Source of the DNA: an uncultured Eubacteriales bacterium
GTDB lineage: Bacteria; Acidobacteriota; Aminicenantia; Aminicenantales; UBA8522
Length of the DNA stretch: 64,000 nt
Reading direction: 5' to 3'
NCBI GenBank assembly: GCA_964558915.1
Contig: CAZLFV010000002.1
Coordinates: 20,501-84,500, forward strand
Part shown: positions 7,154-16,584 of the stretch, in pieces
Layout: each line of letters opens with the position of its first letter
Position numbering within the stretch: position 1 is the stretch's first letter
Notes under the pieces: model-generated
Databases searched by the model: none
Told to the model about the DNA's origin: nothing
The model's input: the letters and a program-made list of their open reading frames with translations, nothing else
Program-made: the position numbers and the translations under genes

Positions 7154-7678
7154 CTATTTTGTCGCCGGTTTGTCGTGTTTGATCTTTTCCCAGGCTGCTG
7201 CATAATCGAACGCGATGCCGTGGGCGTTCTCATGGCAGGTCAGGCAGTACTTTTTGGCAGCATCCGCAGACTCATACAAGATGAGGCCGTTCTTCTGGGC
7301 CAGGGCTCTGTCTTTCATGATGGAGAGTTTTTTGTATTCGCTTCCCGGGCCGTGGCAAACCTCGCAGGTGTCGCCTTCCGCCTTGAGTTCAGGAGCCTTC
7401 TCGAAGAGAGGCGCGTGGCATTTAAGACACTGGGGGCTTTCAGCCGGGTTCTCGACTCCGGCGGCTTGGGCTTTCGGTGCGGCTTCAGGAGAGCTGAGCG
7501 CGGCGAAGGACACGGAATGCTTGGACTTCTGCCAGATCGGATGCTGCTGGCCCTGGATTTCCGTTTTGTGGCAGATCGCGCACTTGGCCGACCCCACGTA
7601 GGAAAAAGTCTGGGCGAACAGGCTGATGAGCAAAACCGCGGCAACGATGACGACAAGCAAGACGACCTTTTTCATCAT
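7154..7678 (-). CDS. Tetrahaem c-type cytochrome (cytochrome c554-like family)
   Basis: CAICH, CLKCH, CEVCH, CLTCH. The motif GSAKCAICHKTEIQGQQHPIWQKSKH is typical of the c554-like family. I place the start at MMKKVVLL, preceded by GGGAGG. The ORF-track start at 7747 overlaps the promoter -35 box. Confidence 0.85.
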   Translation of the reverse strand: MMKKVVLLVVIVAAVLLISLFAQTFSYVGSAKCAICHKTEIQGQQHPIWQKSKHSVSFAALSSPEAAPKAQAAGVENPAESPQCLKCHAPLFEKAPELKAEGDTCEVCHGPGSEYKKLSIMKDRALAQKNGLILYESADAAKKYCLTCHENAHGIAFDYAAAWEKIKHDKPATK

Positions 7679-7718
7679 TCCTCCCGGCAAATCATGGATT
7701 ATTCCACAAAGAAGCCCC

Positions 7719-7747
7719 ATTTTAGAAAACTCCCAAAGGATTGTCAA
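7719..7747 (-). promoter_or_regulatory. Sigma70-type promoter P3 for the distal cytochrome module
   Basis: Minus strand reads TTGACA (7747-7742), a 17-nt spacer, then TAAAAT (7724-7719). It lies in the AT-rich 123-nt gap between the nonahaem and tetrahaem genes. Confidence 0.6.
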
Positions 7748-9102: not shown

Positions 9103-10176
9103 TTATGTCTTGGGCGCAAGGTAGGTGAGCGCCGTCATGACGATAATGTAAAGCAAAACGATGCCTCCTGCGATCGAAAAACCCGGGCTCTTCACCTCCC
9201 GGCCAGACCTCCGGTCAAGATAAGGAACCAACATCCAGAGCAATCCACCCAGCATGAATCCAAGTATGGCCAGGACCTCGCCTTCCAGGGAGAAAATATG
9301 AGCGGGGATGATTTTAAGAGTCGTGAACATGAATGTAAAATACCATTCTGGCTTGATACCGGCCGGCGTCGGGGCAAAAGGGTCTGCTTTTTGACCTATT
9401 TCCCAGGGAAAAAAAACACAGATGACCCCGATAGCGGTCAGGACGAGAAGCCAGCCCAGCGCATCTTTAAGGATGAAGGCGGGGAAAAAAGAAATTTCCT
9501 TTGTCTCGGAGACCCCGATGGGCTTGCTCATCCCCAGGACCTGGACCAGGAAGATATGGATCCCTATGAGGACAAGCGCAACAGCCGGCAGGATAGCGAC
9601 ATGAAGCCAGAAGAATCGGCTCAGTGTCGCGCCGGAAACCTCCGGGCCTCCGAGGATAAACGTCTTGAGGGCTTTGCCGACGACAGGGACAGCTCCGGCG
9701 ATGTCCGTTCCTACCCGGGTGGCGAAAAACGAGAGCTCGTTCCAGGGGAGAAGATAGCCGCTGAACCCGAAAGCCAGGAAGAAGAGAAGCAGGAAGAACC
9801 CGCTGACCCAAGTGAGATCCCTCGGCGGTCGGTAGGCTTTCAGGAAGAATGTGCTGAACATGTGGATGAATATGACTCCGATCAGGATGTTGGCCGTCCA
9901 GCTGTGGACAGAGCGGATGAGCCACCCGAATTTGACCTGACTCATGATAAACACGATGCTTTCATGAGCCGCGTCGACCGAGGGAGTGTAATATAGCAGG
10001 AGGAGAATTCCCGTAATGACCTGCACGGAAAAAAGAAAAAGGCACAGCCCGCCAAAGTAATACCAGAAGGAATACTTATGCTCTGGGACTTTTTTTTTCT
10101 TGCCGAATTCAAGCAGGGCGGAAAATTGGAATCTGGATTCGAGGTAGTCGGTGGCCTTCCTAATGAGTTGGCTCAT
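9103..10176 (-). CDS. Cytochrome b of a Rieske/cyt b complex (b6 plus subunit IV fused type)
   Basis: Colinear with cytochrome b6: FGWLIRSVHSWTANILIGVIFIHMF and RFFWLHVAILPAVALVLIGIHIF supply the four haem-b His ligands. The Qo-site PEWY motif is present in the C-terminal part (IKPEWYFTFMF). Start set at MSQLIRK (10176), just after the Rieske stop. Confidence 0.9.
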   Translation of the reverse strand: MSQLIRKATDYLESRFQFSALLEFGKKKKVPEHKYSFWYYFGGLCLFLFSVQVITGILLLLYYTPSVDAAHESIVFIMSQVKFGWLIRSVHSWTANILIGVIFIHMFSTFFLKAYRPPRDLTWVSGFFLLLFFLAFGFSGYLLPWNELSFFATRVGTDIAGAVPVVGKALKTFILGGPEVSGATLSRFFWLHVAILPAVALVLIGIHIFLVQVLGMSKPIGVSETKEISFFPAFILKDALGWLLVLTAIGVICVFFPWEIGQKADPFAPTPAGIKPEWYFTFMFTTLKIIPAHIFSLEGEVLAILGFMLGGLLWMLVPYLDRRSGREVKSPGFSIAGGIVLLYIIVMTALTYLAPKT

Positions 10177-10177
10177 T

Positions 10178-10603
10178 CTAAGATTTCTTCGAGACAAAAA
10201 TATCGCCGCTCCCTACCTCGATTTCGTAAGCCTCCAAGGGGCGCGGCGGCGGACCGGATATGACATTCCCGGCTAGGTCAAACCGGCCGTTGTGACAGGG
10301 GCAATAGAGGGTGCCGGTGTCGCTTTCGTAGCTCACGGTGCAGGTCAGGTGAGTGCACACGGCGGAAAAAGCCCGGAGCTGACCGTCGGCAGTATTGATT
10401 AACAGCGCGGGAGAGGACCCGAATTTGAACAGCTTGGCGGAGTTGGGCGCCAGCTCACCCACTTTGGCGGCGGCGATTTTCCTGGCCACGGCTTCAGCCT
10501 GGCGCGGAGGAATGAGATACCGGACGATGGGATAAAGAAGGGAAGTCGCAGTCCCCAGGAGAGACCCTCCGAGAAAGAAATTGACGAACTTTCGCCTCTT
10601 CAT
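10178..10603 (-). CDS. Rieske 2Fe-2S iron-sulfur subunit
   Basis: The two Rieske boxes CTHLTC and CPCHNGRF are present. N-terminal MKRRKFVNFF is twin-arginine-like and is followed by a TM helix. Confidence 0.9.
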   Translation of the reverse strand: MKRRKFVNFFLGGSLLGTATSLLYPIVRYLIPPRQAEAVARKIAAAKVGELAPNSAKLFKFGSSPALLINTADGQLRAFSAVCTHLTCTVSYESDTGTLYCPCHNGRFDLAGNVISGPPPRPLEAYEIEVGSGDIFVSKKS

Positions 10604-10607
10604 TTTC

Positions 10608-12593
10608 CTATTTTTCTCCGATAGATTTTACCTTTTGTTTGAGTTTTGTCAACAGCCCTTCAATGAACTGAGAGTTGTGGACCGAGAGGCTGCCGTCATT
10701 TTCGAGCATCCTGAGCATCTCCGCAATTTCAGCCAGTTTGGCCCGGTCGTACTCACCCAGGTCGAGCCTTTTCTTTTCCTCCATGCCGGCGAGGAGCGAT
10801 TCCCGCTGCTTTTTATAGGCATCCTGCCATTTTTCAAATATCTTCTTGTAGCTCTCCTCATGGCAATTCGAGCAGGTGGAGCTTCCGGCCGGACGCAATT
10901 GTCCTTTTTCCTGGCTGTGGCAATCAGCGCAAGCGACGTTGGCCTCGGCCATCATGTCCTTGGGGACTTCCCAAGCGGCCAGAGTCCCCCCCGCATAGAG
11001 TGTCTTTTGCAGGACATGGCACCTTCCACAGTCTGTCTTGGGATCCTGGTGGTGGCAAGCGGCGCACTGTTTTTTGGAGCCGATGAACTCCCCGTGTTTT
11101 TTCGCGTTGGAATGGCAGGTCGAACACTCCATTTTCTGGCTGACGACATGCGTTTTATGGGGAAAGGAAAGCCCGTAGAGCTGGCTGTTGATCTCTTCGA
11201 TCCCGGCATGGCACTGGGAGCATTGCGAGGGAATGTCTTGTGTTTTGGGCAGGAATCTTTCGGGCGTGTAAGAGGAACCGATGAGCTGGAGCGCTTCCTC
11301 CATATAGGCAAAGGCAGCCTGAAGCAGTTCCTGCGAGTAGGCCATGTTATGGACGCTCTTGCCTCTCTCAACGACGTCGATATTGAAAGCCGCATCGTCC
11401 AGCAACGACCCAGCCTTTTCCCGATGGGGGACCTTGCTCATTCTTACTTCCTGGGAAGACCTTTGATAGATCCTCCTGATCTGGTTCAGCCTTTTCTCAG
11501 TCGAGACCTGCCAGTTCCGGAGGATTCGGGCGAATCCTGTTCCGTGACAGGATTCGCAGGCCTGCTCCTTGGAGATCATGGTCTCGCTCTTGACCAGCTT
11601 GCCGCCTGCTTCCTCATGAAACATGTGGCAGCCCTTGCAGCTCAGTCCTTTTTCCAGCATGACATTGGGCAGCGCGTGGGCAACGCCTTTTCCGCCTTCC
11701 CCTGTGTAGAGGATCTTTTGGGCCTGATGAAACCCCGTATGGCAGGTCCGGCAATCGGCGATTGTTTCGATATCTTTAACGATTTTGTGCTGGATCTGGA
11801 GATGGCATTGGTTGCACTCAATCTTATGGGCTGTGATATGAGTCGAATGGATCAAATCTGTATCAGAATATTGATCCAGCCTTTCTTTCTCAAAATGGCA
11901 CTTGTAGCAGTTTTCGCGAGGGACGGCTCCGTCGCCGACAATGACCTGACTGTGGCACTTATCGCAGTTGAAGCCCTTTTCAAATACGAGAGTGTGGTCG
12001 AACCGGGATCCCTTTTCTGATATCAAATCCTGCTGGATGTGGCAGTGGGAGCACTCGCCGATCTGGGGGTAGTGTTCGCTCTTTTTAAAATGGCAGATAA
12101 AACATGTCGATTCTGTGACAGTTATGTGCTCCCCTTGAACGATCTGGGAATGGCAGCTTGTGCAGCGGAGCTTCTTTCCTCTTTTCAAATCCTCGAAGTG
12201 GATCTTGTGGTCGAAGACGACCGTCTTGAATTCCACCCGGCCCTGGAGAAGCCTGGTGTCGTGGCAGCCCGGACGGAGGCAGCTTTCATCCGGAATCTCT
12301 GCCCAGGGTCTGGACTTGAGGTAAAGCTTGCTCCAATACCGGCCCAGCTGCATCAGCCCCTCCACTTTTGCCCTGAAGAAAGATTTCAACCCTGGAGGAT
12401 AATGGCAGACGCTGCACTGGATGGTGCCGTGGGAAGAGGTTTTCCAGCTCTGATAGAAGGGCTTCATGTAGTGGCAGGTCGAGCAGAACCGGGATTGGGA
12501 CGTGATTTCTGCCGCGGCGATGAAAAGAAGCAGGAAAAACGCAAGACCACAAAGGAATATCAGACTCCTTTTCTTGGTGATCCGTATCTTCAT
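10608..12593 (-). CDS. 18-haem c-type cytochrome with N-terminal NapC/NirT-type membrane anchor
   Basis: N-terminal TM helix followed by SRFCSTCHYMKPFYQSWKTSSH, a NapC/NirT-like signature. 17 CxxCH plus CLRPGCH (CX4CH, nt 12261-12281) in 661 aa. Confidence 0.85.
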   Translation of the reverse strand: MKIRITKKRSLIFLCGLAFFLLLFIAAAEITSQSRFCSTCHYMKPFYQSWKTSSHGTIQCSVCHYPPGLKSFFRAKVEGLMQLGRYWSKLYLKSRPWAEIPDESCLRPGCHDTRLLQGRVEFKTVVFDHKIHFEDLKRGKKLRCTSCHSQIVQGEHITVTESTCFICHFKKSEHYPQIGECSHCHIQQDLISEKGSRFDHTLVFEKGFNCDKCHSQVIVGDGAVPRENCYKCHFEKERLDQYSDTDLIHSTHITAHKIECNQCHLQIQHKIVKDIETIADCRTCHTGFHQAQKILYTGEGGKGVAHALPNVMLEKGLSCKGCHMFHEEAGGKLVKSETMISKEQACESCHGTGFARILRNWQVSTEKRLNQIRRIYQRSSQEVRMSKVPHREKAGSLLDDAAFNIDVVERGKSVHNMAYSQELLQAAFAYMEEALQLIGSSYTPERFLPKTQDIPSQCSQCHAGIEEINSQLYGLSFPHKTHVVSQKMECSTCHSNAKKHGEFIGSKKQCAACHHQDPKTDCGRCHVLQKTLYAGGTLAAWEVPKDMMAEANVACADCHSQEKGQLRPAGSSTCSNCHEESYKKIFEKWQDAYKKQRESLLAGMEEKKRLDLGEYDRAKLAEIAEMLRMLENDGSLSVHNSQFIEGLLTKLKQKVKSIGEK

Positions 12594-12638: not shown

Positions 12639-13457
12639 TTAAGCATAGCTATGCAACCCCGCCAGCAGGTAATTCACGCCAAAGTAGGTGAACAGGGCGG
12701 CGAGAAATCCGATGATGGCGATGGCGGCCGACCGCCGGCCCTTCCAGCCCATGACGATCCGGGTGTGGAGATACAGGGCAAAGACAAACCAAGTAATCAG
12801 GCTCCAGACCTCTTTCGGGTCCCAGCTCCAATAACTTCCCCAAGCCTTGTAGGCCCAAACCATGCCGAAGACAAGGCCGCCTAGGGTGAAGAGAGGAAAA
12901 CCGATGGCAATAGAGCGGTAGCTGATCGAGTCCAGTTTTTCCGCTGTGAGCGCTGATTTCGCCGCTTTCCCTCTTCGTTCCTTGGCGTCGGCCGCAAGGT
13001 ACATGATGCTCGTAATGAAAGCGATGGCAAAAAAGGCTTCGCCGATTAGGGTAACAGAGACATGTAGCCAGAGCCAGTAACTCTGCAGCGCCGGAACTAG
13101 AGGAGTCGTCTCTTTCGGCATGAGAGGCGAAGACGCCAAAGCCATAAGGGCGATGACAATGAGCATCAGGTAGCCGGCCGGTCTTTTGACCTTGTATTTT
13201 GCCTCAATAATAACAAAGGCCAGGATGGACGCCCAGGCCAGAAAAGAGAGGGACTCGTACATGTTGGTGAAAGGCGCATGGCCGCTTTCCACAGTCCTCA
13301 AAATGAGGGCCAGCGTATGGACGAGGAGGCCGGTCAAAGCCACAGAGAAACCAATCCTGGCCCTGTTTTCCTTATTGGAGAAAAGATGGGAGAAATAGAA
13401 GGCAGCCGCTAAAGCATAAAGGATGAAGGCGAGCAGAAAAAAAGTGGATTCGGTCAT
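12639..13457 (-). CDS. ccsA: System II cytochrome c biogenesis protein CcsA/ResC (haem export and ligation)
   Basis: Polytopic membrane protein with the WWD-type motif WGSYWSWDPKEVWSLITW. 4-nt overlap with resB. Confidence 0.9.
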   Translation of the reverse strand: MTESTFFLLAFILYALAAAFYFSHLFSNKENRARIGFSVALTGLLVHTLALILRTVESGHAPFTNMYESLSFLAWASILAFVIIEAKYKVKRPAGYLMLIVIALMALASSPLMPKETTPLVPALQSYWLWLHVSVTLIGEAFFAIAFITSIMYLAADAKERRGKAAKSALTAEKLDSISYRSIAIGFPLFTLGGLVFGMVWAYKAWGSYWSWDPKEVWSLITWFVFALYLHTRIVMGWKGRRSAAIAIIGFLAALFTYFGVNYLLAGLHSYA

Positions 13458-14809
13458 TTGCGTATCCTGAGAGAATTGATGATGCTTTCAAATTCCGTTT
13501 GAAAGGCCTCCCGGGCTTTGACGGAAATTCCGCCGGCCGTGACCTCTGTCTTCCCCTGGCTGTCCTCTAAAATAATCTTTAACTCTCGTGGCGGCCAGTA
13601 AAAGGCCAGGCCAAGCCCCACCATCAGCAGGACGCAGCCGACCCAGATGAGCGAGACGCCCGGGTCCTTGGCCACGTGAATAACTGAGTAGCTCGGCGCC
13701 CGGACATCTTTGAGTTCGAGAGTGATATCTGCTTCCTTGGCGCCGGAGTGGAGACGCGAAAAATCCGGGAACCTGGCGAAAATCCAGCCGGAGAACACCT
13801 TTTCTGTTCCTATCCAGCCTTCGATGAAGGCCGCTGGATTATTGGGCTCGAGCGAGCGGCTGGCCGGCTGGTTTTTTTCGTCCAGGACGAAATCAGGGAT
13901 GAACCGGACGGCGTTGAGCACAAGGGATTCACCGTTCAGGGCCGTTTTCTCGCCGATTTTCAGCCAGGCCTTTTTAAGGTAACTTGGGTCCGGCTTTTTC
14001 TTCACCCAGACCTCGAGCGACGGATGGTCCCAATCCGAACCGTAGCCGCTTTGATAAAACACGTAGCCTCGATGATTGAGGGGAGAGTTGACTTCGACTG
14101 TTTTTTGGAAGAGGGGCTTTCCGGCCTCAGTCACAGTGAGGAGGCTTTTCCAATCCTTGACGCTTCCGTTAGGATAGTATTCCGTCACGAATTGATCCAG
14201 CCGGACAGTAAAATCCGCCCCCGGGACTGAAAGAGTCCGGCCTTCGGTAAAGGTGAGGTCCTGGCGGAAACTGCCGAGCCCGCTGGCAATTCCGCCGGCC
14301 AAGATCACCAGGAGGCCCAAGTGGACGACATCAGACCCGAACCAGCCGAGGACCCTCTTCCGGGCGGTCAGGCAAGATCTATTATCGGTTCTGACTTCCC
14401 TGAGCCGGTAGCGCCGGCGGCGGAGTTCCTTCTTGACCATTTCTCTGGTTTCGGCGGCGGACAAACCGACTTTGAACTTGTCCTTGATTTTCAAAGCGAG
14501 AATGTTCTTGGGTTCGGTCTCCAACTTGGTCTGGAAGGTCCGCCGGAATTTGGGAAAGAGCCTTTCGAGCGTGCAGACGATGATATTCACGGCAAAGAGC
14601 GCAAGCAGGCCGACAAACCAGAAGGACTGATACAGCCTGGTGAACTGCAGGCGCTCAAGAAGCGCCCCGAGCTGGCCATAGCGGACAAGATATTCCTGGG
14701 TGCTTCTTCCCTGGGGGATTAGCGTTCCGACGATCGAGGCGCAGATGAGGATAATCAGTAGGGTGATGGCCACCCGGACCGAAGTGAAAAAATTGAGCAG
14801 GGCTTTCAT
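13454..14809 (-). CDS. resB: System II cytochrome c biogenesis protein ResB/Ccs1
   Basis: 451 aa. N-terminal MKALLNFFTSVRVAITLLIILICASIVGTLIPQG is a typical ResB start. Large soluble loop and C-terminal TM helix; coupled to ccsA. Confidence 0.85.
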   Translation of the reverse strand: MKALLNFFTSVRVAITLLIILICASIVGTLIPQGRSTQEYLVRYGQLGALLERLQFTRLYQSFWFVGLLALFAVNIIVCTLERLFPKFRRTFQTKLETEPKNILALKIKDKFKVGLSAAETREMVKKELRRRRYRLREVRTDNRSCLTARKRVLGWFGSDVVHLGLLVILAGGIASGLGSFRQDLTFTEGRTLSVPGADFTVRLDQFVTEYYPNGSVKDWKSLLTVTEAGKPLFQKTVEVNSPLNHRGYVFYQSGYGSDWDHPSLEVWVKKKPDPSYLKKAWLKIGEKTALNGESLVLNAVRFIPDFVLDEKNQPASRSLEPNNPAAFIEGWIGTEKVFSGWIFARFPDFSRLHSGAKEADITLELKDVRAPSYSVIHVAKDPGVSLIWVGCVLLMVGLGLAFYWPPRELKIILEDSQGKTEVTAGGISVKAREAFQTEFESIINSLRIRK

Positions 14810-14879
14810 GCCGCATCCTTGAGTCGTCTGTTTAATAACTACTAATTATATCGGAATACTCAATTTTTGGCCATCCTCT

Positions 14880-16115
14880 CTAGGTGCGGCCTTTACGCAT
14901 CTCCGCTGCGAGAGTCTGGATCTCTGTGAGCGACCGCCTCATTTCGCTCCAACCGTACCAGAGAGCGTAGTCCGGATTGGCATGAAAAGTCCCCTGAAAA
15001 GAGCGCATCCGGTGTTCGAGAAACATGACGAAGAGCTTCTGCTCCACTTCGGTTGGCGCGTCATGGAAAGTCAGAAGGTCGGGAAACCGATAGGCGTAGC
15101 TTGCCGGTTTCGGCAGGATGCCGTCCTGGTAAAGGGAGGCGACTTCTCGGATGGCCTCGGCCATCAGATGGTCGACTTCTTTGATCATCTCATCGCCTTT
15201 TTTGAGCTCTCCTTTGGCAAAATTCGCGCTATGGCAACTGGTGCAAATCCCGATCATCTTGTCCCGTTCTTTCTGCCAGGCTTCCTGGGTCAGACGGGCG
15301 ACGTCGGCCGCCTTGACGACATCAAGCCTTGGCGTGGGGTTACCGCTCGGGTCCAGAACGCCGAGAGCCTGAAGAATTGTGGCTCTGTCTGCAGCCCATT
15401 GCCTGTCCTCAGGCATCGGCAGCCGCACGGCCAGAAATCCCCAGGCAGTCCGGACTTCGTGGTTTTTCTCCTGCATATGGCAGGTCTGGCAGGAGGGCGC
15501 GGCAGTTGATTCGGGGAGGATTTTATTTTGTTTCAAGAGAAAGCGGACGCCGTGCTTGGAAGCGGAGTACATCTCCCATTGAGGATGATCGAAGCCCATA
15601 TGGCAGGTCTGGCAGGCTTGGGGCTGCCGGGCTTCGGTGACGGAAAAAATATGCCGCGTATGGCAGGCGTCGCAAGAGGCCCGGCCGAACCCTGCGCCGG
15701 CCTTATCGAGCTCCGCTATTTCCGCCTCTGTTTTCAGCCCGATCTTGTGGCATCCGCCACAGCCCTTCATTCCTTCCATCATTGCCACGGGCTGAGCGTG
15801 CGCTGTCGGCATGGCTTTCATCGCCGCCCAGGCCAGGGCGTGCTTGCCCCGCTTGAACTGGTTCACCTGGTCTTCGTGACAGGCAGCGCATGTTTCTGGC
15901 GTAGGGATCCCGGCCTTGGCAAAGTCCAAGGCGGTCTTGTGTCCTTCGCCGTGGCAAATAGAACAGCCCACCTCATTTTTGCTGTGCTCGCTCAGCAGCC
16001 AATCGCTGACGATGTAGGGTGTGGCCTTTTTATGACACTCCATACATTCCTGACCAAGGAGCGCCGGCGCAACAAGAAAACTCAAGAAAATCCCCACGAC
16101 GATTCTTCGCTTCAT
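14880..16115 (-). CDS. Octahaem cytochrome c of the hydroxylamine oxidoreductase (HAO) family
   Basis: 8 CxxCH: CMECH, CSICH, CAACH, CGGCH, CDACH, CQTCH, CQTCH, CTSCH. HAO-family spacing and landmarks are present: CDACHTRH, CQTCHMGFDHPQWEMYSASKHG, and a C-terminal helical domain after haem 8. Has a signal peptide. Confidence 0.8.
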   Translation of the reverse strand: MKRRIVVGIFLSFLVAPALLGQECMECHKKATPYIVSDWLLSEHSKNEVGCSICHGEGHKTALDFAKAGIPTPETCAACHEDQVNQFKRGKHALAWAAMKAMPTAHAQPVAMMEGMKGCGGCHKIGLKTEAEIAELDKAGAGFGRASCDACHTRHIFSVTEARQPQACQTCHMGFDHPQWEMYSASKHGVRFLLKQNKILPESTAAPSCQTCHMQEKNHEVRTAWGFLAVRLPMPEDRQWAADRATILQALGVLDPSGNPTPRLDVVKAADVARLTQEAWQKERDKMIGICTSCHSANFAKGELKKGDEMIKEVDHLMAEAIREVASLYQDGILPKPASYAYRFPDLLTFHDAPTEVEQKLFVMFLEHRMRSFQGTFHANPDYALWYGWSEMRRSLTEIQTLAAEMRKGRT

Positions 16116-16167
16116 GATGCACCTCCTCGACGGGGATAGAAGCCGCTGCTTGAAATTGGCGGATTAC

Positions 16168-16196
16168 TCTATAGCATCGCCCGCAGGAAAAGTCAA
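16168..16196 (-). promoter_or_regulatory. Sigma70-type promoter P2 for the HAO / maturation / Rieske-cyt b module
   Basis: Minus strand reads TTGACT (16196-16191), a 17-nt spacer, then TATAGA (16173-16168). It lies about 45 nt upstream of a GAGGAGG ribosome-binding site and the ATG at 16115. Confidence 0.5.
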
Positions 16197-16218
16197 AAAA
16201 TTGGCGGTAAGCATCTTC

Positions 16219-16584
16219 ATTTCCGTAAGCATTCTGCTTTAGAATAGGGTCCTGCCACGACTTCCCCGCCAGGGGGAGGAGGCGAGGGATGATGTGGTGA
16301 GAAGTCCGTATGAGCGACGAGCGGGCGTCGCGAGGCATCGAAGATGCCGTGGCGATCTCAGTTTGAGATTGCTTCGCTGTCGCTCGCAATGACAATCTTG
16401 ATTTGCGCAAGCAAATCAGGGGGTTCCAAGGGGGATGGCCCCTTTGGTCGCAGAGCAAAGCTCGAGAAGGGGAGGCAGGGAGCGCAGCGAACGTTGGAAG
16501 GGGGAACGCGGAGCGTTCTCCCTCCAAGAAACCAATGTGGGAAATCGCAGCTTGACTTCGAACCACATCTCCCGAGCCTCGTCG
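16219..16584. repeat. MITE-like structured interspersed repeat, copy A (left arm, core and a ~140-bp internal insertion; right arm missing)
   Basis: 16272-16396 matches 35829-35953 with 4 mismatches in 125 nt. 16537-16584 matches 35964-36011. 16397-16536 is present only in this copy. The left arm 16219-16262 is about 81% identical to the reverse complement of the right arm of copy B. Confidence 0.8.

What the first reader, a model, noticed from the sequence alone, without database searches (positions are those of the whole stretch)
14880..16115. HAO-family octahaem as the first gene of the Rieske/cyt b transcription unit
The protein has eight CxxCH with HAO-like spacing (CDACHTRH, CQTCHMGFDHPQWEMYSASKHG) and a signal peptide. 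It sits immediately behind promoter P2 and ahead of resB-ccsA and the bc-type genes.

Anammox Rieske/cyt b gene clusters also encode HAO-like octahaems, so the linkage may be mechanistically meaningful.

I cannot decide whether this enzyme is oxidative (P460 Tyr cross-link) or reductive (epsilon-Hao-like). The C-terminal region contains FHANPDYALWYGW, with candidate Tyr residues.
Basis: partly seen in the sequence, partly recalled or inferred. Interest (0 to 1): 0.6.

Follow-up and report, generated by a model that had tools for sequence, protein, structure and literature searches.

The report
Tyrosine-less HAO-family octahaem reductase gene
This gene encodes a secreted eight-haem enzyme of the hydroxylamine-oxidoreductase family that lacks the tyrosine needed for oxidising chemistry. 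It therefore most likely reduces nitrite, nitric oxide or hydroxylamine, and it belongs to a very widespread, highly conserved branch that I found no biochemical study of. Its link to Rieske/cytochrome b genes is real but loose and already published for other bacteria.

Summary
Window 14880-16115 (-) encodes a 411-aa protein with a signal peptide, and all 16 of its cysteines sit in eight CxxCH motifs. Sequence, profile and fold searches place it only in the HAO family, not in ONR, OTR or MccA.

In NeHAO and Kuenenia HOX the cross-linking Tyr lies 8 residues after an invariant His. Here that position (His378+8) is Trp386, as in the Tyr-less nitrite reductase Kustc0458.

The protein belongs to a short (~410 aa) clade that is 69-78% identical across more than 15 phyla. 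Elsewhere it stands alone or sits next to Rrf2, NapH-like, hemerythrin or qNOR genes.

In Aminicenantes it always lies in the multihaem island, between the MtrAB-like module and resB-ccsA plus an 18-haem NapC/NirT protein. Rieske/cyt b follows in only some genomes, although three Bacteroidota-labelled bins have HAO-Rieske-cyt b directly.

HAO-Rieske/cyt b linkage outside anammox is already published (Caldithrix). This scan has met both this clade and a membrane-anchored HAO-Rieske/cyt b cassette in other genomes.

Verdict: a new member of a known kind, of moderate interest.

The parts
14880..16115 (-). Gene for the 411-aa HAO-family octahaem cytochrome c (short, soluble, Tyr-less type)
   Evidence: ORF. 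PF13447 at 99 bits against a cut-off of 21.9. Best PDB sequence hit is 6H5L_A, Kustc0458, at 5e-34; NeHAO scores 2e-24. The top 11 Foldseek hits are all HAO-family structures. Single copy in the genome.
16050..16115 (-). Sec-type signal peptide (residues 1-22, MKRRIVVGIFLSFLVAPALLGQ). Haem 1 motif CMECH starts at residue 24.
   Evidence: Read directly from the sequence. Homologues align from residue 1.
15747..15761 (-). Fourth haem motif CGGCH (residues 119-123), the predicted five-coordinate catalytic haem
   Evidence: Aligns with the haem-4 motif of Kustc0458, KsHOX and NeHAO. Only seven conserved non-motif His (or His/Met) positions are available for eight haems. The assignment as catalytic haem is an inference.
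15585..15590 (-). Asp176-His177, the distal acid/base pair of HAO-type active sites (GFDHP, after haem 6)
   Evidence: Aligns with NeHAO Asp267-His268 (GVDHN) and Kustc0458 GPDHP. Invariant in 31 of 31 close homologues.
14982..14984 (-). His378, invariant in all 38 family representatives, used as the anchor for locating the cross-link position
   Evidence: Invariant in A1 and A2. Aligns with NeHAO His459 and KsHOX chain His407.
14958..14960 (-). Trp386 (His378+8), the position occupied by the haem-cross-linking Tyr in oxidative HAOs
   Evidence: NeHAO His459+8 is Tyr467, and KsHOX chain His407+8 is Tyr415. Kustc0458, which has no cross-link, has Trp at +8. Trp386 is invariant in 31 of 31 close homologues and present in 26 of 38 distant ones.
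16168..16196 (-).
   Evidence: Sequence. Not listed by the strict scan. Related loci carry a terminator plus TTGAAA-17-TATAAT in the same spacer.
14845..14873 (-). Promoter-like TGGCCA-17-TATAAT in the 70-bp gap between the HAO-like gene and resB
   Evidence: Found by the scan. The element (TTGCaA...CTATATTATTAGTAGTTA) is conserved in front of resB in L007, L025, L035, L050 and L064.
13454..14809 (-). resB (System II cytochrome c synthase subunit), the constant downstream neighbour
   Evidence: PF05140 at 1.5e-83. Lies downstream of the HAO gene in all Aminicenantes-type loci.
12639..13457 (-). ccsA/ccsB
   Evidence: TIGR03144 at 268.8 bits against a cut-off of 187.6.
10608..12593 (-). 661-aa multihaem cytochrome with a NapC/NirT-type N-terminal membrane anchor, the candidate quinol dehydrogenase feeding the HAO-like enzyme
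   Evidence: PF03264 at 33.3 bits against a cut-off of 24.1, residues 11-83. Co-occurs with the HAO gene in the Aminicenantes loci that reach that far, including those without Rieske/cyt b.
9103..10603 (-). Rieske (10178-10603) and cytochrome b (9103-10197) genes, an optional alternative quinol-oxidising donor
   Evidence: PF00355, PF00033 and PF13631. Present next to the HAO gene in 8 of 83 loci.
7154..7747 (-). c554-family tetrahaem cytochrome further down the island, a possible soluble carrier
   Evidence: PF13435 at 40.7 bits against a cut-off of 20.8. The proposed role is speculative.

Best explanation
The gene encodes a periplasmic, soluble, probably trimeric octahaem cytochrome c of the HAO family. 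It has the HAO active-site architecture: a five-coordinate haem 4 and the Asp176-His177 distal pair. It has Trp386 where oxidative HAOs carry the Tyr that cross-links to the neighbouring subunit's catalytic haem. Without that cross-link there is no P460 cofactor, and the enzyme should work as a reductase.

Proposed mechanism. Electrons enter through the ring of bis-His haems and reduce a small nitrogen oxide at haem 4. The substrate is nitrite, NO or hydroxylamine. The product (NO or ammonium) is undecided.

Proposed electron supply in this Aminicenantes island. Electrons most likely come from the quinol pool through the co-conserved NapC/NirT-anchored 18-haem protein, in a 'reverse-HURM' logic. 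Where the Rieske/cytochrome b-nonahaem cassette is present, it may also supply electrons. The adjacent ResB/CcsA pair matures the many haem sites.

What is shown: family membership, absence of Tyr at the cross-link position, conservation of the active-site pair, and the synteny patterns.

What is inferred: the direction of catalysis, the substrate, the electron donors, and whether the role is respiration or detoxification. My rough split for the last point is 40% respiratory, 60% protective or scavenging, given that this genome shows no nitrate reductase, NrfA, NirK, Hcp or qNOR.
For: Family membership:
- PF13447 scores 99 bits.
- Only HAO-family chains match strongly, by sequence and by fold.

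Cross-link position:
- The cross-link Tyr lies at invariant-His+8 in both NeHAO and KsHOX. The query and Kustc0458 have Trp there.
- Ferousi 2021 shows that the Tyr-less Kustc0458 reduces nitrite, NO and hydroxylamine and does not oxidise hydroxylamine or hydrazine (PMC8042395).
- PMC8940962, citing Haase 2017, says reductive epsilon-Hao has Trp at the Tyr position.

Active site:
- Asp176-His177 is invariant in 31 of 31 close homologues.
- Seven conserved distal ligands serve eight haems.

Genomic context in other phyla:
- Rrf2 regulators, a NapH/MauN-type polyferredoxin, DUF438-hemerythrin-PAS, hemerythrin and qNOR lie beside orthologues in 21 of 83 loci.

Electron donors:
- The NapC/NirT-type 18-haem gene co-occurs with the HAO gene in the Aminicenantes-type loci that reach that far.
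- Rieske/cyt b lies within 10 kb in 8 of 83 loci, in at least three different arrangements.
- The same idea is published for Caldithrix and for the anammox R/b-3 complex.
Against: - No experiment exists on any member of this clade that I could find.
- Tyr387 sits directly next to Trp386 and is invariant in the close family. The sequence aligners place the one-residue length difference ambiguously: HMMER aligns the Tyr with Leu385. I could not make a structure-based residue alignment.
- The AF2 model is mediocre in the haem core (pLDDT 69 overall, below 50 for residues 141-190).
- The genome (87% complete) shows none of the usual nitrate/nitrite pathway partners, so a respiratory nitrogen pathway is not evident.
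- About half of the orthologous loci are orphans with no informative neighbours.
- The gene lies in an island otherwise devoted to electron export, which leaves room for a pure electron-transfer role.
- The phylogeny puts all three PDB HAOs, including the Tyr-less Kustc0458, in a separate clade (99/98 support). Function is therefore being transferred across a long branch.
Confidence: 0.6

Rival explanations
1. Electron hub. In Aminicenantes the protein serves mainly as a periplasmic multi-haem electron store or wire. A 24-haem trimer would sit between the inner-membrane quinol dehydrogenases and the MtrA-like decahaem of the outer-membrane conduit, with no physiological nitrogen-oxide chemistry.
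For: - It sits in a fixed position between the MtrAB-like/decahaem module and the inner-membrane modules in at least 10 Aminicenantes-type loci.
- The island otherwise looks like an electron-export system.
- This genome shows no other nitrogen-oxide enzymes.
Against: - The same protein, at 72-78% identity, occurs in many phyla without any conduit genes. Often it stands alone or lies next to NO-related genes.
- The catalytic Asp-His pair and the open haem are strictly conserved. A simple wire would not need them.
Confidence: 0.15
2. Oxidative P460 enzyme. Tyr387 (or Tyr383) reaches the neighbouring subunit's haem 4 and forms the cross-link, so the enzyme oxidises hydroxylamine or hydrazine.
For: - Tyr383 and Tyr387 flank the critical position and are conserved in the close family.
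- If KsHOX Gly416 rather than Gly418 is matched to Gly388, Tyr415 would align with Tyr387 (my reading).
Against: - The His+8 spacing is identical in two very divergent oxidative enzymes and gives Trp here.
- Kustc0458 has the same loop length as the query, carries Trp-Trp-Trp at +7 to +9, and has no cross-link.
- Tyr383 and Tyr387 are not conserved across the wider family.
- The hosts are anaerobes without amo or hzs context, and the neighbours elsewhere are NO-stress genes.
Confidence: 0.04
3. Reductase for a non-nitrogen substrate, for example sulfite, tetrathionate, selenite or another oxyanion, using the same open haem.
For: - Related octahaems (OTR, MccA, IhOCC) are catalytically promiscuous (PMC9250108).
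- The cyt b of the island scores best against the ExtP model of a selenite/tellurite operon, although below its cut-off.
- Many loci give no nitrogen-related context.
Against: - The active-site pair is the HAO type, not the MccA (copper) or OTR (Lys) type. ONR and NrfA give only weak partial matches, and OTR and MccA are not among the sequence or fold matches.
- The informative neighbours that recur are NO-related, not sulfur-related.
Confidence: 0.1

Closest known systems
Kuenenia stuttgartiensis HAOr (Kustc0458, with dihaem partner Kustc0457; PDB 6H5L)
   Same: - Best sequence and fold match.
- Eight haems in HAO order and the Asp-His pair.
- No cross-link Tyr, with Trp at invariant-His+8, and the same loop length.
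- Shown to be a reductase, converting nitrite to NO (PMC8042395).
   Different: - Only about 24% identical, and 517 aa against 411 aa.
- The query lacks the N-terminal extension of roughly 50 residues and several loops, and it has an extra segment of about 19 residues between haems 4 and 5.
- No Kustc0457-like dihaem gene lies nearby.
- In the tree Kustc0458 groups with the oxidative HAOs, not with the query's clade.
Epsilonproteobacterial Hao (epsilon-Hao; Haase et al. 2017, Mol Microbiol 105:127)
   Same: A short, Tyr-less HAO-family enzyme reported to reduce nitrite and hydroxylamine, with Trp at the Tyr position (as quoted in PMC8042395 and PMC8940962).
   Different: - I could not obtain epsilon-Hao sequences, so relatedness was not measured.
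- The Met reported eight residues before the Trp is His378 here.
- In Campylobacterota epsilon-Hao often lies with nap genes, and this genome shows no nap genes.
Caldithrix abyssi nap-Rieske/cyt b-'epsilon-Hao' cluster (Cabys_2556-2564; PMC5317091)
   Same: An HAO-like, Tyr-less octahaem encoded next to Rieske and cytochrome b genes. The authors proposed that the Rieske/cyt b complex feeds the octahaem nitrite reductase.
   Different: - That cluster is part of a nitrate-reductase locus, whereas this one sits in a multihaem electron-conduit island.
- Here resB-ccsA and an 18-haem NapC-type gene lie between the HAO gene and Rieske/cyt b.
- I did not compare the Cabys_2556 sequence.
Kuenenia Rieske/cyt b complex R/b-3 (kuste4569-4574) with HAO-like subunit Kuste4574
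   Same: An HAO-like octahaem genetically tied to a Rieske/cyt b complex, proposed to reduce nitrite, with activity untested (PMC12485887).
   Different: - Kuste4574 is described as a membrane-bound component of the complex.
- The query is soluble, is separated from Rieske/cyt b by three genes, and keeps its place when Rieske/cyt b is absent.
Nitrosomonas europaea HAO and Kuenenia HOX/HDH (oxidative P460 enzymes; PDB 4FAS, 4N4J, 6HIF)
   Same: The same fold and haem arrangement, the Asp-His pair and the C-terminal helical domain.
   Different: - The cross-link Tyr is replaced by Trp386.
- Identity is 21-25%, and the query is 90-170 residues shorter.
- The NCBIfam HDH model scores 93 bits against a cut-off of 900.
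IhOCC of Ignicoccus hospitalis (PDB 4QO5)
   Same: A Tyr-less HAO-clade octahaem with nitrite and hydroxylamine reductase activity (PMC9250108). It matches by sequence and by fold.
   Different: It is the weakest of the HAO-family matches (9e-21 with the single sequence). It is archaeal and 521 aa long.

Membership tests
HAO family (octahaem hydroxylamine-oxidoreductase-like, PF13447) | Eight CxxCH motifs in the HAO order and spacing | tested here: met
   Eight motifs. All eight align with those of Kustc0458, KsHOX and NeHAO. They are invariant in 38 family representatives.
HAO family (octahaem hydroxylamine-oxidoreductase-like, PF13447) | Profile match above the curated threshold | tested here: met
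   PF13447 scores 99 bits against a gathering score of 21.9.
HAO family (octahaem hydroxylamine-oxidoreductase-like, PF13447) | Distal Asp-His pair after the haem 6 motif | tested here: met
   GFD176H177P aligns with NeHAO GVD267H268N. Invariant in the close family.
HAO family (octahaem hydroxylamine-oxidoreductase-like, PF13447) | One five-coordinate catalytic haem (haem 4) and seven bis-ligated haems | tested here: inconclusive
   Seven conserved non-motif ligand positions (H44 or Met, H59, H92, H155, H188, H219, H378) fit this arrangement. Ligation itself cannot be seen without a haem-containing structure.
HAO family (octahaem hydroxylamine-oxidoreductase-like, PF13447) | HAO fold with the C-terminal helical oligomerisation domain | tested here: met
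   The Foldseek top 11 hits are all HAO-family (E 2e-8 to 6e-7), while ONR and NrfA are not significant. Long confident helices span 297-330, 356-378 and 381-410. The model is only moderate overall, and the trimer state was not tested.
Oxidative P460 subclass (NeHAO, HOX, HDH) | Tyr at the cross-link position (invariant His+8) | tested here: not met
   His378+8 is Trp386. Tyr occupies that position in NeHAO (Tyr467) and KsHOX (chain Tyr415). The neighbouring Tyr387 leaves a small residual doubt.
Oxidative P460 subclass (NeHAO, HOX, HDH) | P460 absorption band and covalent trimer | not testable with these tools
   This needs purified protein.
Hydrazine dehydrogenase (NCBIfam NF052343) | Score above the equivalog cut-off | tested here: not met
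   92.9 bits against a cut-off of 900.
Epsilon-Hao (Haase 2017) | Trp at the Tyr position | tested here: met
   Trp386. The criterion is taken from PMC8940962.
Epsilon-Hao (Haase 2017) | Conserved Met eight residues before that Trp, and clustering with Campylobacterota sequences | tested here: not met
   The residue eight positions before Trp386 is the invariant His378. Clustering could not be tested because no epsilon-Hao sequence was available in the tools.
ONR / OTR / MccA octahaems | Best profile or fold match to these families | tested here: not met
   ONR gives only partial matches at E about 3e-4, covering query positions 26-103. Foldseek E values exceed 0.7 for ONR and NrfA, and OTR and MccA are not among the matches.
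Rieske/cyt b-associated HAO-like subunit (anammox R/b-3 type, Caldithrix type) | Obligate genetic linkage to Rieske and cytochrome b genes | tested here: not met
   Rieske/cyt b lies within 10 kb in only 8 of 83 orthologous loci. It is absent behind the NapC-type gene in L025, L035, L050 and L064.

The most novel reading that the evidence does not exclude
The island may run inwards rather than outwards. The MtrAB-like porin-cytochrome conduit would take electrons from extracellular Fe(II) or another reduced solid, as MtoAB and PioAB are thought to do. It would deliver them in the periplasm to this Tyr-less HAO-type reductase. That would give an enzymatic coupling of Fe(II) oxidation to nitrite or NO reduction in an abundant group regarded as fermenters. 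The Rieske/cyt b and NapC-type modules would connect the same periplasmic haem pool to the quinone pool.

Nothing in my data excludes this reading, because the fixed position of the HAO gene directly behind the conduit genes fits either direction of flow. Nothing specifically supports it either.
Probability: 0.07. Interest if true: 0.8.

Novelty: new member of a known kind. Interest (0 to 1): 0.4.

Why it matters
Genes of this clade are routinely annotated as 'hydroxylamine dehydrogenase' (K10535) and counted as nitrification markers in metagenomes (JGI names; discussion in PMC8940962). The sequence evidence says they are the reductive, Tyr-less type.

The clade is very large. More than 7,400 clusters at 90% identity were scored and more than 590 species genomes matched. 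It stays 69-78% identical across more than 15 phyla, and I found no biochemical study of it.

Knowing what it reduces, and to which product, would change how nitrite, NO and hydroxylamine turnover in anoxic sediments and soils is read from metagenomes.

For Aminicenantes specifically, it is the best-conserved gene of a large multihaem island. This suggests that the island has a periplasmic nitrogen-oxide outlet as well as an extracellular one.

Tried and rejected
1. Only HAO-family chains match strongly, by sequence and by fold.
2. HDH equivalog: rejected.
3. Tyr383 or Tyr387 as the cross-linker: considered unlikely for the reasons given under the oxidative rival, but not excluded. The fold tool returns no residue alignment or coordinates, so I could not superpose the model on 4FAS or 6H5L.
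5. Placement relative to epsilon-Hao: no epsilon-Hao sequence was reachable.
6. In a quick tree the window's protein did not fall in the other Aminicenantes clade, which hinted at replacement by transfer. The constrained tree was in fact 37.6 log-likelihood units better (p-AU 0.93), so this was a search artefact and I dropped it.
7. The Bothnian Sea preprint and the Acididesulfobacillus paper added nothing specific to this clade.
8. I looked for nitrogen-pathway partners in the genome (NrfA, Hcp, qNOR domain, NirK, molybdopterin enzymes). There was only a weak partial NrfA-like match inside an island undecahaem, and both molybdopterin hits are NuoG-like. NirS and NosZ were not searched.
Full report
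**1. The observation**

The ORF at window 14880-16115 on the minus strand encodes 411 residues. It contains eight CxxCH motifs, starting at residues 24, 51, 76, 119, 148, 168, 209 and 291. All 16 cysteines of the protein lie in these motifs. From its own composition 0.03 motifs would be expected by chance.

The N-terminus MKRRIVVGIFLSFLVAPALLGQ is a standard Sec signal, and haem 1 starts two residues later. The gene is present once in the 3.04-Mb, 87%-complete genome.

**2. Family**

- Pfam gives PF13447 at 99 bits against a cut-off of 21.9.
- NCBIfam has no model that the protein passes. The hydrazine dehydrogenase equivalog scores 93 bits against a cut-off of 900.
- With the single sequence, only eight distinct PDB sequences match, all HAO-family. 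They are Kustc0458 (6H5L, 5e-34), NeHAO in three sequence variants (2e-24), Brocadia HOX, HDH, KsHOX and IhOCC.
- A profile of 38 family members raises these to 6e-58 through 6e-43. ONR, NrfA and MtrC-type proteins appear only as weak partial matches.
- An AlphaFold model (mean pLDDT 69; C-terminal helices confident, haem core poor) finds the same eleven HAO-family chains by Foldseek (E 2e-8 to 6e-7). Nothing else falls below E = 0.3.

**3. Oxidative or reductive**

It is established knowledge that in NeHAO the Tyr cross-linked to the neighbour's haem 4 is Tyr467 in mature numbering. The PDB chain numbering reproduces the known Asp267-His268, so the two numberings agree.

- In the alignments, NeHAO reads H459-VNPGGWT-Y467.
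- KsHOX reads H407-MSMYNQT-Y415 in chain numbering. I take this as the published Tyr451, with the offset recalled from my own knowledge.
- In both enzymes the Tyr lies eight residues after a His that is invariant in all 38 family representatives.
- The query reads H378-ANPDYAL-W386-Y-G-W.
- Kustc0458, which has no cross-link in its crystal structure, reads H-AQQDVSW-W-W-G-Q, with the same loop length.

The equivalent residue is therefore Trp386. It is invariant in 31 of 31 close homologues and present in 26 of 38 distant ones. PMC8940962, citing Haase 2017, states that reductive epsilon-Hao proteins have a Trp at the Tyr position.

HMMER places the one-residue gap differently and pairs the Tyr with Leu385. 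Under either placement the query has no Tyr at that position. Tyr387 is adjacent and conserved in the close family, so a small doubt remains that only a structure or a spectrum can remove.

The distal Asp176-His177 pair is conserved, so this is an enzyme-type site rather than a plain wire. Ferousi et al. showed that the Tyr-less Kustc0458 reduces nitrite, NO and hydroxylamine and does not oxidise hydroxylamine or hydrazine. They argue that the direction of catalysis is encoded by the presence or absence of this Tyr.

**4. The clade**

- The homologue search scored more than 7,400 proteins at E below 1e-5. The best 120 are all 75-91% identical and 398-442 aa long, apart from one 363-aa sequence that covers 88% of the query. 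JGI calls many of them 'hydroxylamine dehydrogenase', and NCBI calls them 'multiheme c-type cytochrome'.
- In one genome per species, more than 590 stretches encode relatives. The best 80 are 69-78% identical. They carry labels from Acidobacteriota, Ignavibacteriota, Bacteroidota, Nitrospirota, Thermodesulfobacteriota, Zixibacteria, Gemmatimonadota, Calditrichota, Verrucomicrobiota, Bacillota and others. Several lie on contigs of 0.2-4.3 Mb.
- At 50% clustering there are 226 clusters with E below 1e-30. They include sister groups with a C-terminal membrane helix: P0123, P0135, P0138 and P0143.
- In a tree, the three PDB enzymes (NeHAO, KsHOX, Kustc0458) form their own clade with 99/98 support, apart from all the short forms. 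The query is therefore no closer by descent to the reductive Kustc0458 than to the oxidative enzymes. The functional inference rests on the active-site features, not on clade membership.
- Within the order of the window's genome, 23 of 41 genomes have the gene. In its own family, 15 of 19 do.

**5. Context**

Aminicenantes-type loci. Ten of the fetched loci (L007, L025, L028, L034-L036, L045, L050, L060, L064) show parts of one order, as far as their contigs reach. Some of these carry an 'Eubacteriales' label. The order is MtrA-like decahaem, beta-barrel, 779-aa decahaem, HAO, resB, ccsA, NapC/NirT-type 18-haem. Rieske/cyt b follows in the window, L007 and L034. It is missing in L025, L035, L050 and L064, although those loci extend far enough to show it.

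Independent HAO-Rieske/cyt b arrangements. In three Bacteroidota-labelled bins (L017, L040, L044) the HAO gene is followed within 100-370 nt by Rieske and cyt b. In L017 and L040 a further multihaem gene follows. L049, L067 and L081 also have Rieske and/or cyt b genes within 10 kb. In total this is 8 of 83 loci, in at least three distinct arrangements. That is more than chance would give for a once-per-genome gene pair, but it is far from obligatory.

Other recurrent neighbours:
- an Rrf2 regulator (12 loci);
- a NapH/MauN-type membrane polyferredoxin (8 loci);
- a cupin (6 loci);
- a small hemerythrin, with weak YtfE/RIC similarity (5 loci);
- DUF438-hemerythrin-PAS (4 loci);
- qNOR (3 loci).

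Roughly half of the loci are orphans. The pattern fits a periplasmic enzyme that handles NO-related compounds and accepts electrons from whichever quinol dehydrogenase the host provides.

**6. Transcription unit**

- In L034, L035, L036, L050 and L064 the spacer between the decahaem gene and the HAO gene (about 160-215 bp) holds a GGGCGGCAT...ATGCCGCCC hairpin with a T-run, followed by TTGAAA-17-TATAAT. Four loci (L007, L034, L036, L060) have a second element, TTGACA-17-TATAAA.
- In the window the spacer is 524 bp. It holds the repeat noted earlier by the scan, then TTGACT-17-TATAGA and a strong RBS. A transcription start in front of the HAO gene is therefore well supported by comparison.
- The 70-bp gap before resB contains TGGCCA-17-TATAAT. 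This is part of an element conserved in front of resB in five other loci, and no terminator is evident there. The downstream genes may thus be read both from the HAO promoter and from their own.

**7. Nitrogen-pathway partners in this genome**

I found no NrfA beyond a weak partial match in an island undecahaem. I also found no Hcp, no qNOR domain and no NirK. The only molybdopterin-type proteins are NuoG-like. NirS and NosZ were not searched.

With 87% completeness this is not proof of absence. It does make a Caldithrix-type nitrate-ammonification pathway unlikely here. It favours scavenging or detoxification of nitrite, NO or hydroxylamine produced by neighbouring organisms or by chemistry.

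**8. What is known already**

- Kublanov et al. described an 'epsilon-Hao' next to Rieske/cyt b in the Caldithrix nap cluster and proposed exactly this electron path.
- Deferribacter and other thermophiles have hao-hcp clusters.
- Anammox R/b-3 contains Kuste4574.
- Hypersaline-mat metagenomes are dominated by Tyr-less hao genes.
- This scan has reported, in other genomes, both the membrane-anchored HAO-like subunit of Rieske/cyt b cassettes and the soluble clade of about 410 aa beside qNOR or Rrf2/NapH.

The present case is therefore a further member. Its one particular feature is a fixed place in the Aminicenantes multihaem island, together with a NapC/NirT-type 18-haem protein and a c554-family tetrahaem. 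Those are the same three component types as the HAO-c554-cM552 module of ammonia oxidisers, probably run in reverse.

**9. Verdict**

The enzyme is very probably the reductive, Tyr-less type (about 85%). The full proposed mechanism, nitrogen-oxide reduction with quinol-derived electrons delivered by the NapC-type and/or Rieske/cyt b modules, stands at about 60%. It is a new member of a known kind, of moderate interest. That interest comes mainly from the size and conservation of a clade that remains uncharacterised.

Noticed in passing
L034:9815-10003, L035, L036, L050, L064 (aligned with window 16113-16300): Related Aminicenantes loci carry a clean intrinsic terminator (GGGCGGCAT-loop-ATGCCGCCC plus a T-run) and one or two near-consensus sigma-70 promoters between the decahaem gene and the HAO gene. 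In the window this spacer is expanded to 524 bp, no comparable terminator was seen there, and the promoter is weaker.
   Followed up: partly
window 14845-14873 and the resB upstream regions of L007, L025, L035, L050, L064: A conserved AT-rich promoter-like element (TTGCaA...CTATATTATTAGTAGTTA) lies directly in front of resB. This suggests that the cytochrome-maturation genes can be transcribed independently of the HAO gene.
   Followed up: partly
window 7154-7747 (-): A 197-aa cytochrome matches the c554 family (PF13435, 40.7 bits). Together with the HAO-like gene and the NapC/NirT-type gene, the island holds the three component types of the nitrifier HAO-c554-cM552 module.
   Followed up: no
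alignment A1, column of residue 44: The presumed distal ligand His44 is replaced by Met in 10 of 38 family representatives. Some branches of the short HAO-like family may therefore have one His/Met-ligated haem.
   Followed up: no
P0123, P0135, P0138, P0143 (alignment A1, C-terminal columns): Sister clades at 43-57% identity carry a C-terminal hydrophobic helix. They may correspond to the membrane-anchored HAO-like subunits of Rieske/cyt b cassettes reported elsewhere by this scan. I could not look up their contexts.
   Followed up: no
L027:10001-11227: The orthologue in a Cloacimonadota bin contains an in-frame stop. It may be a pseudogene or an assembly error.
   Followed up: no
L020 and L063; L028, L034, L035, L064: L020 ('Actinomycetota') and L063 ('Calditrichota') have nearly identical HAO genes and the same neighbours. 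Four 'Eubacteriales' bins carry the complete Aminicenantes island and fall inside the Aminicenantes HAO clade. The taxonomic labels of these bins are probably wrong.
   Followed up: partly
L005, L021, L023, L046, L056, L068: A recurrent four-gene string runs Rrf2 regulator, NapH/MauN-type polyferredoxin, a small 4Fe-4S or hemerythrin protein in some loci, then the HAO-like octahaem. It looks like a self-contained quinol-to-octahaem module under an Fe-S-cluster regulator.
   Followed up: partly
G015 (C188:16299-17510 and C401:347-1549): One genome of the window's family carries two copies of the gene, at 82% and 74% identity to the query.
   Followed up: no
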